From IMG/VR virus record IMGVR_UViG_3300042259_000065: 64,000 nucleotides of DNA, one strand, 5' to 3'. The first letter of the stretch is position 1; each line of letters opens with the position of its first letter. A model generated the notes under the pieces. That model did no database searches and was not told the DNA's origin. It saw only the letters and a list, made by a program, of their open reading frames with translations. The stretch comes from a virus (Duplodnaviria; Heunggongvirae; Uroviricota; Caudoviricetes). The position numbers and the translations under genes are program-made. This document shows positions 38,378-39,892 of this stretch, one piece after another.

Positions 38378-39490
38378 ATGGGGAATTTTATAATGTTGTT
38401 AGCACACAAGATAGAGATACGTCCAACACTTGAGCAAGAACAATTCTTTGAAAGTGCTTGTGGTAGTTCCCGTCATTTATGGAATAACATGGTTGCACAT
38501 TTCTCGAATAAAGAGAATAAGTTTTCGAAGAAATCTGCGAGAGAGTTTTATTACAGTAGTCGTAATGAGTTTACTTGGTACAACGAGTTAAGTACAGAGA
38601 TCTTCCAATCTACTATTGACAATCTTGAAAATGCTTTTAAAGGTTTCTTTAAAAATAAGAAAGGGTTTCCTAAGTTTAAGAAGAAGGGCATCAAAGATTC
38701 CTTTAGAATCTCTCAATCACCTAAATTCTCTGTTGTCGGCAGAGAACTTCGTATAGAGAAATTCAATAAAGTTAAGAGTCTACCTCCTATATCTTTACGA
38801 GAAAAACTTCGATTTACAGGTAAACCTAAACAATTGACAATTAGTAAAACAGGTGGTAAATGGTTTGCATCTGTGTTGGTAGAAGTAGAGTCTGGGTATA
38901 ATCTTAAACAACCTACAAGCAATAAACATGTTGGTATAGATTTGGGTATCAAGGCATTAGTTACCACGTCTGAAGGTGTATGTATTGGAAAATCTAATAG
39001 ACTTTCTAAACAATTAAGTAAACTAGCTAAATTGCAACAAAGACTTGCAAAGCAAAAGAAAGGTAGTAATCGTAGAGCGAAAACCAAGCAAAATATTAGT
39101 AAACTACATTTCTATGTTGCACAACAACGTAAATCATTGTTACATTCAGTAAGTGACTACTTGACATCAGAATATGAAATAATTTGCATGGAAGACTTAG
39201 ATGTCAAAGGTATGCTTGAGAATGGTAACAAGAATTTATCACGTATGATCTCTGATGTTGGTATGTACGAGTTATGTAGACAATTGGAGTATAAATCCTT
39301 CTTAAGAGGATGTAAAGTATTGTTTGTTGACCAATACTTCCCTTCAAGCAAACTGTGTAGTGTTTGTGGTAACATCAAGGAAGACTTAAAACTGTCAGAT
39401 AGAACATACAGTTGTGATTGTGGTTCTAGTATAGATAGAGATTTGAATGCTGCAAGAAATATCTTGACAGAATGTTTGAAACAACTATAA
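38378..39490 (+). CDS. tnpB: TnpB (IS200/IS605-family OrfB, RuvC-like RNA-guided nuclease family)
   Basis: The C-terminus [36 protein letters not shown] is the TnpB zinc-finger plus RuvC-III signature. The N-terminus [15 protein letters not shown] fits. No tnpA lies nearby. Confidence 0.8.
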   Translation: [370 protein letters not shown]

Positions 39491-39892
39491 TGTTTTCAGT
39501 GGCGACAGATAACAGCGTCACTATAAAATGCACACCTTGGTGTGAATATGTTGCACTTGTTGCACATTTAGTTATTTGAAGTCTGGAATAAAAATGATAA
39601 AGGTCGTGAGCATCATATTGGTTGGTTCATCAAAGAACAAGACCAACCTTATCACTTTAAGAAAGTACCTTTCACAATTCTGAGTCCTTCTGAGCAAGAG
39701 GAAATTTGTTGGGTGCAGTATAATCTTGAAGATTAATCCGTAAGGACATAGTATGTAGCTTTAGATAGTATCTGTAAGCTCTGTGGTGAAGAATTAATAT
39801 TAACTAAGGTAGTTTATCATCTTAGAGGTTAAAACCTTACCACAAGCTTTACACGTTGTCTGAGAAGTATTATACTTACACTGGAGGTATGT

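What the first reader, a model, noticed from the sequence alone, without database searches (positions are those of the whole stretch)
38378..39560. Orphan IS605-type TnpB (no TnpA) in the early region, with candidate omega-RNA at its 3' end
The C-terminus [36 protein letters not shown] is a textbook TnpB zinc-finger plus RuvC-III segment. No Y1 transposase (tnpA) is present within the window, so this is a stand-alone TnpB. TnpB proteins are RNA-guided nucleases. Their guide (omega or right-end RNA) is transcribed from the 3' end of tnpB and the ~100 nt downstream. Here 39440..39560 contains short hairpins (gcacaccttggtgtga) ahead of a ~400-nt non-coding stretch. In a virulent phage an RNA-guided nuclease could be used against competing phages or host DNA, or could be a homing selfish element.
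Basis: partly seen in the sequence, partly recalled or inferred. Interest (0 to 1): 0.6.

Follow-up and report, generated by a model that had tools for sequence, protein, structure and literature searches.

The report
Phage TnpB nuclease with mini guide-RNA
A Vibrio phage carries an intact RNA-guided DNA-cutting enzyme (TnpB) and an unusually small guide RNA left over from an IS607-type jumping gene that has lost its own transposase, and the guide points at the uninterrupted version of the phage gene it sits in, so it most likely spreads between co-infecting phages like a homing endonuclease.

Summary
The ORF is real. It is a full-length TnpB: NCBIfam guided_TnpB scores 271 bits, it matches ISDra2 TnpB at E=1e-45, and the RuvC D-E-D triad and four zinc-finger Cys are intact.

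The lineage is IS607, not IS605. About 50%-identical bacterial relatives carry a MerR-HTH + resolvase TnpA overlapping the tnpB start. Twelve phage copies all lack the catalytic domain, and most keep only a 66-aa HTH ORF. The window keeps the last ~32 codons of that ORF and has lost the left end.

A guide (omega) RNA lies just 3' of the stop, at 39498-39578. It has stem P1, hairpin P2, a tail hairpin and a P1-loop/3'-end pseudoknot, all supported by covariation. It lacks the P3/P4 module found in relatives. It is 84-97% identical across copies whose synonymous sites are saturated. tnpB dN/dS is about 0.1. A perfect sigma-70 promoter sits directly upstream of P1.

The right end abuts the last 52 codons of a small phage gene that is intact in Vibrio phage vB_CoeS_P1. 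The predicted 20-nt guide matches that allele at 18 of 20 positions.

The best reading is a transposase-less, immobile TnpB/omega-RNA module acting as a homing or gene-drive nuclease between related phages. That function is inferred, not shown. I rate it a new variant of a known kind, of moderate interest.

The parts
38305..38433 (+). Remnant of the IS607 TnpA(serine) MerR-HTH reading frame (SIFKARRTPTNRRYYTEADLQLYLNGEFYNVVSTQDRDTSNT*). It overlaps the tnpB start, has a stop codon just upstream, and the 5' half and the whole left end are missing.
   Evidence: tblastn with the IBT_VpB-34 HTH ORF gives 87.5% identity over 32 aa, E=6e-16. See also alignment A1. Nothing left of 38305 resembles the left end or the HTH 5' half: the alignment score is no better than shuffles.
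38393..39490 (+). tnpB, 365 aa from the conserved MLLAHK start (the ORF can also be read from ATG 38378). RuvC residues are D183/E267/D350, which are D188/E272/D355 in the 370-aa numbering. The zinc finger is CSVC...CDC.
   Evidence: family models; ISDra2 TnpB 8h1j, E=1.4e-45, catalytic residues aligned; invariant D-E-D and Cys in 12 copies; dN/dS 0.07-0.13.
39464..39491 (+). Perfect sigma-70 consensus promoter (TTGACA-16 nt-TATAAT) overlapping the tnpB stop codon. The predicted transcription start is about 39498, the first base of P1.
   Evidence: Only 2 perfect matches occur in the 64-kb window against 0.09 expected. 10-of-12 versions occur at the same place in L001 and L035; none in L003.
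39498..39578 (+). Omega (right-end) RNA scaffold, short form, about 81 nt. P1 pairs 39498-39506 with 39515-39522. The P2 hairpin pairs 39531-39536 with 39539-39544. The tail hairpin pairs 39548-39555 with 39561-39567 and carries 2x GTTGCAC. The pseudoknot pairs the P1 loop 39507-39513 with 39571-39577. The right end finishes with core TG at 39577-39578.
   Evidence: Family alignment A5: 96.5% of cells paired, covariation score 0.644 against at most 0.147 for slid controls. Short-form alignment A7: 96.7% paired, and pseudoknot pair 17-85 shows AU:5 CG:4 UG:2 UA:1. Pseudoknot in bacterial relatives. Covariance-model hit of 46.6 bits. 84-97.5% identity across copies with saturated synonymous sites.
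39579..39598 (+). Predicted guide segment (AAGTCTGGAATAAAAATGAT). The 20-nt length is assumed by analogy. The first base may instead belong to the scaffold, as in ISXfa1.
   Evidence: Conservation among 12 copies stops at ...TATCTG and the flanks all differ. The guide occurs once in the window. It matches the intact allele in vB_CoeS_P1 at 18/20, with positions 1-10 identical.
39578..39736 (+). 3' remnant (52 codons plus stop) of the interrupted small phage gene (PHROG 9192 family). It has no start codon.
   Evidence: 89% nt and 94% aa identity to codons 22-73 of vB_CoeS_P1 XTP71352.1 (L002:4149-4370), beginning exactly at the right-end junction. PHROG assignment.
38063..38275 (+). Intact 70-aa gene of the same PHROG 9192 family immediately left of the truncated element. 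It is context only, not part of the element.
   Evidence: PHROG 9192, E=1.9e-14. 32% identity to the interrupted gene over 28 aa.

Best explanation
This is a non-autonomous, left-end-truncated derivative of an IS607-family insertion sequence, lodged inside a small phage gene.

What survives, and is kept by selection, is the nuclease module:
- an intact TnpB (RuvC D-E-D, zinc finger);
- a compact omega RNA of about 81 nt (P1, P2, tail hairpin, P1-loop/3'-end pseudoknot);
- the RNA's own consensus sigma-70 promoter at the end of tnpB.

The omega RNA reads through the right end into the flanking gene fragment, which supplies a guide of about 20 nt.

Proposed mechanism (inferred): when a related phage carrying the uninterrupted allele co-infects the same cell, TnpB-omega RNA cuts that allele next to a short motif ending in WG. 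Recombinational repair then copies the element in. This is homing, or gene drive, and incidentally damages the competitor.

Transposition is no longer possible. The serine-recombinase domain is absent from the whole phage clade, and this copy has also lost its left end.

Shown here: identity, lineage, anatomy, RNA structure, purifying selection, the interrupted target gene and its intact allele.

Inferred: transcription from the promoter, guide length, the transposon-adjacent motif (TAM), cleavage and homing.
For: - TnpB membership and catalytic residues.
- IS607 lineage: 42 distinct upstream ORFs in relatives resemble the L067 TnpA, which is MerR + Resolvase by Pfam. An HTH-only ORF or its remnant occurs in 11 of the 12 phage copies.
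- Omega RNA: covariation in P1, P2 and P3 across 30 sequences; short-form structure including the pseudoknot in 12 copies; a model built from the alignment hits directly after tnpB in loci not used for training.
- Selection: dN/dS 0.07-0.13 with pS 0.65-0.72, while the non-coding RNA region stays 84-97.5% identical.
- Promoter.
- Target: the right end abuts codon 22 of a gene that is intact in vB_CoeS_P1, and guide and allele agree at 18/20.
- A 1.9-kb block (38052-39951) is identical between the window and a UViG whose flanks differ by 1-9%, which is compatible with a recent recombinational transfer.
- Published precedent: IS605 and IS607 TnpB act as homing nucleases on empty donor joints (bioRxiv 10.1101/2023.11.20.567912). 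The IS607 reRNA extends past the right end, with a GG core (PMC10711439).
Against: - There are no expression or cleavage data.
- The short-form RNA lacks the P3/P4 module present in all other relatives, so its activity is untested.
- Only one intact allele is known, and it mismatches the guide at positions 11 and 14.
- The TAM is unknown. The right end itself ends in TG, like the left-flank cores, so how self-cleavage is avoided is unexplained.
- The 5' 66 nt of the interrupted gene and the left end are absent. The left junction therefore cannot be reconstructed, and the insertion history needs an extra deletion.
- Since this copy lost its left end, there is no evidence of continued selection on it: the near-identical UViG copies carry no differences to measure.
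Confidence: 0.6

Rival explanations
1. One reading: an orphan IS605-type TnpB whose partner would be a Y1 TnpA, with an omega RNA spanning about 39440-39560.
For: Pfam names the domains OrfB_IS605. The NCBIfam IS200_TnpB model scores higher (253 bits) than IS607_TnpB (187 bits), though both are below their cutoffs. No Y1 TnpA is in the window.
Against: - The closest full elements all carry a MerR-HTH + resolvase TnpA overlapping the tnpB start.
- The window and 10 of the 11 other phage copies keep that TnpA's HTH frame.
- The ends show IS607-type core dinucleotides, and multi-copy relatives end in GG.
- The RNA structure and right end extend to 39578.
Confidence: 0.03
2. An inert relic: the element is dead, with no transposase, no left end and a truncated omega RNA. 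The ORF is intact only because the decay is recent.
For: The left end and the HTH 5' half are gone. The HTH ORF is also broken, fused or absent in L140, L143 and L148. The RNA lacks P3/P4. No function has been demonstrated.
Against: - Twelve copies in twelve contexts all keep a full-length TnpB with D-E-D and Cys.
- dN/dS is about 0.1 at saturated dS.
- The non-coding RNA region is far more conserved than synonymous sites and shows compensatory changes.
- A perfect promoter sits in front of the RNA.
- Decay hits the transposition parts selectively, not the nuclease module.
Confidence: 0.15
3. A domesticated phage weapon or regulator: TnpB-omega RNA is kept for the phage's benefit, either to destroy competing phage or host DNA or to act as a TldR-like RNA-guided repressor, rather than for its own spread.
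For: - The module is retained in lytic-type phages without any transposase.
- The RNA has a strong promoter.
- Cutting a competitor's genome would also help the carrier phage.
- Phage-encoded TnpB derivatives used as regulators are known (TldR papers listed).
Against: - The guide is simply whatever flanks the right end, and it differs in every copy, as expected for a selfish element and not for a dedicated target.
- The RuvC triad is intact, unlike TldR.
- No host-directed guide was found. Host genomes could not be searched with the guide.
Confidence: 0.15
4. A still-mobile element moved in trans: HTH-only copies are mobilised by an unsampled autonomous IS607, or by a separately encoded serine recombinase, with the 66-aa HTH protein as the end-binding subunit.
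For: - The same HTH-only architecture sits at 11 or more different sites with a precise right end.
- The HTH ORF is intact and conserved in 7 copies.
- The window and many relatives encode a stand-alone resolvase-domain protein.
Against: - This particular copy has no left end, so it cannot be a substrate.
- No full-length TnpA was found in any clade member.
- The stand-alone resolvase is a widespread gene of large lytic phages, is present in the element-free vB_CoeS_P1, and does not resemble IS607 TnpA.
Confidence: 0.07

Closest known systems
IS607-family TnpB/reRNA elements, e.g. ISXfa1 of Xylella fastidiosa (PMC10711439) and the CboIStron IS607 element (bioRxiv 10.1101/2023.11.20.567912)
   Same: - TnpB with a RuvC D-E-D triad.
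- tnpA (MerR-HTH + serine recombinase) overlapping the tnpB start in the relatives.
- A guide RNA that overlaps the right end and reads into the flank.
- A core dinucleotide at the junctions.
- A nexus-loop/3'-end pseudoknot.
- A demonstrated homing role for TnpB in that family.
   Different: - The whole phage clade lacks the recombinase domain (HTH-only ORF or less).
- This copy lacks the left end.
- The core is TG/AG rather than GG.
- The RNA scaffold is about 81 nt and lacks the P3/P4 module.
- The RNA has its own consensus promoter.
- The host replicon is a lytic-type phage.
ISDra2 TnpB (IS200/IS605 family; PDB 8H1J, 8EXA)
   Same: Same protein fold family and domain order. Alignment over residues 5-367 at E=1.4e-45, with the catalytic D/E/D aligned.
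   Different: The transposon family differs (Y1 TnpA, ssDNA hairpin ends, TTGAT TAM). Its omega RNA begins inside the ORF and is longer.
Non-autonomous TnpB-only IS605/IS607 copies (for example IStron copies lacking full-length TnpA, described in bioRxiv 10.1101/2023.11.20.567912)
   Same: TnpB and omega RNA are retained without a working transposase, and tnpA gene fragments reveal the family of origin.
   Different: Here a defined in-frame derivative (66-aa MerR HTH) is conserved across many phage copies rather than being random debris, and the RNA is miniaturised.
Phage homing endonuclease genes (HNH, LAGLIDADG and GIY-YIG types)
   Same: The proposed lifestyle is the same: a nuclease gene inside or next to a phage gene cuts the nuclease-free allele in a co-infecting relative and is copied in by recombination, with co-conversion of flanks.
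   Different: Target recognition is by an RNA guide derived from the flank, not by protein. There is no homology to those nucleases.
TldR (phage-encoded, TnpB-derived RNA-guided transcription factors)
   Same: They are TnpB homologs with omega-like RNAs encoded by phages.
   Different: TldR proteins have lost RuvC activity and target host promoters. Here the triad is intact in all 12 copies and the guide is just the insertion flank.

Membership tests
TnpB (RNA-guided endonuclease, OMEGA class) | Family-model match above the curated cutoff and the full domain set (HTH/WED-REC, RuvC, zinc ribbon) | tested here: met
   NCBIfam NF040570 guided_TnpB scores 270.9 bits (cutoff 100). Pfam PF12323, PF01385 and PF07282 are all above cutoff.
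TnpB (RNA-guided endonuclease, OMEGA class) | RuvC catalytic triad D-E-D present | tested here: met
   D183/E267/D350 (365-aa numbering) align with the ISDra2 catalytic residues. They are invariant in 7 and in 12 homologs.
TnpB (RNA-guided endonuclease, OMEGA class) | Conserved structured RNA at the 3' end of the gene, running into variable flank | tested here: met
   Covariation-supported P1, P2 and pseudoknot. Conservation stops at ...TATCTG and the flanks differ in all 12 copies.
TnpB (RNA-guided endonuclease, OMEGA class) | RNA-guided, TAM-dependent DNA cleavage | not testable with these tools
   This needs biochemical or in vivo interference assays.
IS607-family insertion sequence | Serine-recombinase TnpA with an N-terminal MerR-type HTH, upstream of and overlapping tnpB | tested here: not met
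   The window has only the last ~32 codons of the HTH frame. No phage copy has the resolvase domain. The feature is met in about 50%-identical relatives, so descent from IS607 is supported but this locus is not a complete IS607.
IS607-family insertion sequence | Defined left and right ends flanked by matching core dinucleotides, with no target duplication | tested here: inconclusive
   The right end is precise, with core TG. The empty site in vB_CoeS_P1 has AG at the corresponding place. The left end is absent from the window. Complete copies show TG/TG (L001), AG/TG (L003) and TG/TG (L035).
IS200/IS605-family insertion sequence | Y1 (HUH) TnpA partner and hairpin-forming ends next to a TTAC/TTGAT-type motif | tested here: not met
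   No Y1 TnpA was found in the window and none was called in the relatives' loci, whose upstream partner gene is a serine TnpA in 42 distinct cases. NCBIfam IS200_TnpB scores 253 bits, below its cutoff of 425.
TldR-type domesticated TnpB | Inactivated RuvC site and a guide directed at a host promoter | tested here: not met
   The triad is intact. The guide equals the insertion flank within a phage gene.

The most novel reading that the evidence does not exclude
A phage-adapted lineage of TnpB/omega RNA has dispensed with transposition altogether. It persists in lytic Vibrio phages as an RNA-guided homing endonuclease gene. It has a naturally minimised scaffold of about 81 nt driven by its own promoter, and a conserved 66-aa MerR-HTH relic of TnpA that may have a new role as a regulator or end-binder. 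Its presence at 11 or more different sites with precise right ends and ragged left ends would then imply a way of reaching new sites that needs no cognate transposase.
Probability: 0.3. Interest if true: 0.65.

Novelty: new variant of a known kind. Interest (0 to 1): 0.45.

Why it matters
TnpB in phage genomes is commonly annotated as 'transposase' and rarely examined. Three things make this case useful.

1. The anatomy supports a concrete, testable case of RNA-guided homing between lytic phages. The interrupted gene, its intact allele in a cultured phage (vB_CoeS_P1), and cultured carriers of complete copies (IBT_VpB-34, 1.187.O) are all identified.

2. Selection here keeps the nuclease and its RNA while the transposition machinery decays. 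This bears on how TnpB lineages become independent of transposases, which is the route proposed for the origins of Cas12 and TldR.

3. The naturally shortened omega RNA (about 81 nt, missing a whole helix module yet strongly conserved) is of practical interest for compact genome editors.

Tried and rejected
- Rfam: no family matched at gathering threshold or at E≤10 beyond noise.
- MFE folding of 39400-39601 alone is not better than shuffles (z = -0.62). The structure is supported by covariation, not by energy.
- A single-protein scan of bacterial genomes found nothing. The alignment-based scan was needed.
- Two metagenome-contig scans with conserved RNA patterns found nothing. The viral-contig scans with a target-site pattern and with an RNA pattern returned only loci already known plus unrelated hits.
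- No remnant of the first 66 nt of the interrupted gene, or of the vB_CoeS_P1 neighbour gene, was found in the window. No left-end similarity was found left of 38305.
- Four copies first suggested an RE end at GAAG (39581) with core NG. Twelve copies moved the junction to 39578|39579, with core TG.
- The idea that the window's resolvase-domain gene (2753-3514) is the missing catalytic half of TnpA was rejected. It is a widespread gene of large lytic phages, it is present in the element-free vB_CoeS_P1, and it is not detected by an IS607 TnpA profile.
- TAM inference from the left flanks gives only a 3'-terminal WG. A pattern seen at position -5 with four copies and the earlier junction placement was not re-examined after the junction was moved.
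- Structure prediction was not run, because the sequence match to solved TnpB structures already covers the whole protein.
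Full report
**1. The observation**

The ORF 38378..39490 (+) exists and encodes 370 aa with the quoted C-terminus.
- Pfam finds HTH_OrfB_IS605, OrfB_IS605 and Cas12f1-like_TNB.
- NCBIfam's guided_TnpB model scores 270.9 bits against a cutoff of 100.
- The narrower IS200_TnpB and IS607_TnpB 'exception' models both stay below their cutoffs.
- phmmer against PDB sequences aligns residues 5-367 to ISDra2 TnpB (8H1J, E=1.4e-45). GIDLGIK, MEDL and DRDLNAA fall on the catalytic D, E and D.
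- All homologs begin at MLLAHK, so the likely start is 38393 (365 aa), preceded by a GGGGA Shine-Dalgarno-like motif.
- Only one TnpB is in the window.

**2. The genome**

The window is a large Vibrio phage.
- It is 99% identical over 35378-40294 to two IMG/VR contigs (UViG 3300043120_000039 and 3300043036_000233).
- It is syntenic with Vibrio phage vB_CoeS_P1 at about 80-93% nucleotide identity on either side of the locus.
- The window also encodes ribonucleotide reductase, thymidylate synthase, DHFR, terminase, portal and two tRNAs. This fits a lytic-type phage. Gene timing ('early region') was not testable.

**3. The family is IS607, not IS605**

An alignment-based scan of bacterial genomes returned TnpBs of about 45-53% identity in Chromatiaceae, Methylococcaceae, Thiotrichaceae and Endozoicomonadaceae, many in multiple copies.
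- In these and in some viral contigs, 42 distinct upstream ORFs overlapping the tnpB start resemble the 217-aa protein of locus L067.
- Pfam reads that protein as MerR HTH plus Resolvase catalytic domain. This inverted domain order is typical of IS607 TnpA.

In the closest phage copies (IBT_VpB-34, 80% aa; UViG 3300033997_000035, 80%; 1.187.O, 74%), a 66-aa ORF in the same position contains only the MerR HTH. It is joined directly to the short TnpA tail that overlaps tnpB, so the recombinase domain is cleanly missing.

The window retains just the last ~32 codons of this frame (38305-38433), with a stop immediately upstream. Nothing to the left resembles the left end or the HTH 5' half.

No Y1 transposase was detected in the window. 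That test is weak and is in any case irrelevant to this family.

**4. A wider sample of the clade**

A search of the large protein collection found about twenty further clade members (65-91% identity). Eight were fetched with their flanks. Together with the earlier loci this gives twelve copies in twelve different sequence contexts.
- All twelve have a full-length TnpB with D-E-D and the four Cys.
- None has a resolvase domain.
- The HTH ORF is intact as a 66-aa ORF in seven copies. It is an intact 70-aa ORF with a different N-terminus in L141, fused to an upstream ORF in L143, nonsense-mutated in L140, truncated in the window and absent in L148.

So the transposition parts decay while the nuclease module does not.

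**5. Selection**

- Among the four copies compared, synonymous sites are saturated (pS 0.65-0.72) and dN/dS is 0.07-0.13.
- The 79 non-coding bases after the stop remain 84-97.5% identical.
- This excludes a degraded remnant at the clade level and points to a functional non-coding element.

**6. The omega RNA: family structure**

A 30-sequence alignment from phage and bacterial relatives gives an RNAalifold consensus of three helices. 14 of 17 pairs show compensatory changes.
- With the structure fixed, 96.5% of cells pair, against 28-51% when partners are slid.
- The covariation score is 0.644 against at most 0.147, and no shuffle reaches it.
- The window clade keeps P1 and the two strands of P2, but about 45 nt between them (P3 and an inner hairpin) are missing. 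P2 is therefore a simple hairpin, CACACC-TT-GGTGTG.
- A covariance model built from this alignment finds one hit in the window (39489-39549, 46.6 bits). It also hits directly after tnpB in loci not used to build it.

**7. The omega RNA: pseudoknot and short form**

The P1 loop pairs with the last bases of the conserved region.
- Window: CAGATAAC (39506-39513) with GTTATTTG (39571-39578).
- Phage variants covary: ..ATC/GGT.., ..ACC/GGT.., ..ATC/GAT...
- Bacterial relatives covary too: CGCTCA/TGAGCG, CGTTAC/GTAGCG, CGCTCG/CGAGCG, CGTTCC/GGAGCG. In each case the paired segment lies directly before the terminal G of the GG core.
- On the 12-copy short-form alignment the full structure (P1, P2, tail hairpin, pseudoknot) is 96.7% paired. 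Pseudoknot pair 17-85 shows AU:5, CG:4, UG:2, UA:1.
- This matches the published description of IS607 and IS605 omega RNAs, in which a 'nexus' stem-loop forms a pseudoknot with the scaffold 3' end just before the guide (bioRxiv 10.1101/2023.11.20.567912).
- Rfam has no matching family.
- MFE folding of the single sequence is not exceptional.

**8. Promoter**

A perfect TTGACA-16-TATAAT lies at 39464-39491, overlapping the stop codon.
- The window holds only two such perfect sites, against 0.09 expected.
- It predicts a start at about 39498, the first base of P1.
- 10-of-12 versions are present in two other copies but not in 1.187.O.
- Because these bases also encode the TnpB C-terminus, conservation alone is weak evidence. 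That the RNA is transcribed from this promoter is an inference.

**9. Ends and target**

- In multi-copy bacterial relatives the right end continues about 58 nt past P2, through AGATT-type repeats, and stops at ...TAGCGG. In the Endozoicomonadaceae copies the left flank is followed by GG. This is as expected for IS607.
- In the twelve phage copies conservation stops at ...TATCTG (window ...TATTTG, 39578), and every flank differs.
- Complete copies have TG or AG immediately before the left end.

In the window the right end abuts 39579 onward. BLAST shows that 39578-39738 is 89% identical to the 3' part of vB_CoeS_P1 gene XTP71352.1 (73 aa), starting at its codon 22. At protein level the remnant is 94% identical over 52 residues.

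The junction reads:
- window: catttagttatttg|AAGTCTGGAATAAAAATGAT
- intact allele: tgcaaaaggtgtag|AAGTCTGGAACAAGAATGAT

This is 18 of 20 identical, with positions 1-10 matching. The guide sequence occurs once in the window.

**10. The left side**

- The first 66 nt of the interrupted gene and the left end are absent.
- Immediately upstream lies an intact 70-aa gene of the same PHROG (9192), only distantly similar.
- The simplest history is insertion into the second of two paralogs, followed by a deletion of about 0.2 kb that removed the gene's 5' end, the left end and half of the HTH ORF.
- Similarity to vB_CoeS_P1 resumes only at 37548 on the left but starts exactly at the junction on the right.
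- The window and the UViG are identical across 38052-39951 while their flanks differ by 1-9%.
- Both patterns are compatible with recombinational transfer of the element with flank co-conversion. They rest on single comparisons.

**11. Mechanism proposed**

- Established knowledge: IS605 and IS607 TnpB use the right-end RNA to cut the transposon-free site and are re-copied by recombination. A preprint in the search results reports that these nucleases drive a gene drive of insertion sequences in multi-copy plasmids (PMC11870625, title and abstract only).
- Inference for this locus: the same reaction operates between co-infecting phage genomes, which are naturally multi-copy and recombination-proficient. 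The module can then persist without any transposase.
- Unknowns: the TAM, guide length, activity of the short RNA, how the right-end junction (also ...TG) escapes cutting, and how HTH-only elements reached so many sites.

**12. Alternatives**

The stand-alone resolvase-domain gene at 2753-3514 is not a credible missing half of TnpA.

**13. Verdict**

- The kind (IS607-derived TnpB/omega RNA) is known, and TnpB genes are frequent in phage records (413 records matched).
- The HTH-only architecture, the selective decay of the transposition parts, the shortened RNA with its own promoter, and an identified target allele in a cultured relative make this a new variant of a known kind, of moderate interest.

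Noticed in passing
window 2753-3514 (-): A 253-aa protein with an N-terminal resolvase catalytic domain (PHROG 125 'DNA invertase'). It is conserved in many large lytic phages, including vB_CoeS_P1 (60% identity) and Phapecoctavirus-type coliphages. Its role in a lytic-type phage is unclear. It does not look like an IS607 TnpA.
   Followed up: partly
L039 / L040 (IMG/VR UViG 3300043120_000039 and 3300043036_000233), locus coordinates 2504-3710: The contigs that are 99% identical to the window carry a second, divergent TnpB (54% identity) about 40 kb away, outside the window. It has the long-form omega RNA (65 bits with model R1) and no HTH ORF. So one phage genome holds two TnpB lineages with different RNA architectures.
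   Followed up: partly
L128 (Vibrio phage 1.187.O, MG592553.1 103345-104119), locus 2495-3269: A second MerR-HTH ORF (70% identical to the IBT_VpB-34 HTH ORF) overlaps the start of a 208-aa endonuclease VII/HNH-like ORF (PHROG 1035) instead of a tnpB. The same HTH module therefore seems to be paired with different nucleases in these phages. No omega-RNA-like hit was found there.
   Followed up: partly
window 38052-39951 versus L004: Between the window and the near-identical UViG, all 49 differences in 35378-40294 lie outside a 1.9-kb block that contains the element and its immediate flanks. The 300 nt to the right of the block differ by about 9%.
   Followed up: partly
window 55368-56051 (+) and 56047-56766 (+); one further ORF with a LAGLIDADG_3 hit: Two adjacent HNH_3 endonuclease ORFs, and a LAGLIDADG-domain ORF somewhere in the window (not located). 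They suggest that several protein-type homing endonuclease genes share this genome with the TnpB.
   Followed up: no
window 50689-50717 (-): The only other perfect TTGACA-N17-TATAAT promoter consensus in the window.
   Followed up: no
window 47813-47887 and 48127-48201 (+): tRNA-Arg(TCT) and tRNA-Asn(GTT) genes about 8 kb downstream of the element.
   Followed up: no
L143 (Logan DRR337551 contig), locus 1-341 and 2155-3598: Another TnpB ORF ends about 2 kb upstream of the clade copy. In this copy the HTH frame is fused in frame to an upstream ORF (128 aa).
   Followed up: no
L004/L005 4917-5658 versus window 40294: The UViG contigs carry about 740 nt that are absent from the window just downstream of the locus, an indel between otherwise near-identical genomes.
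   Followed up: no
L140 (Logan SRR27759512 contig), about 135 nt upstream of tnpB (locus 2369): In the copy most similar to the window (91% aa), the left end is present but the HTH ORF carries a TGG-to-TAG nonsense change. This is an independent instance of decay of the TnpA relic.
   Followed up: partly
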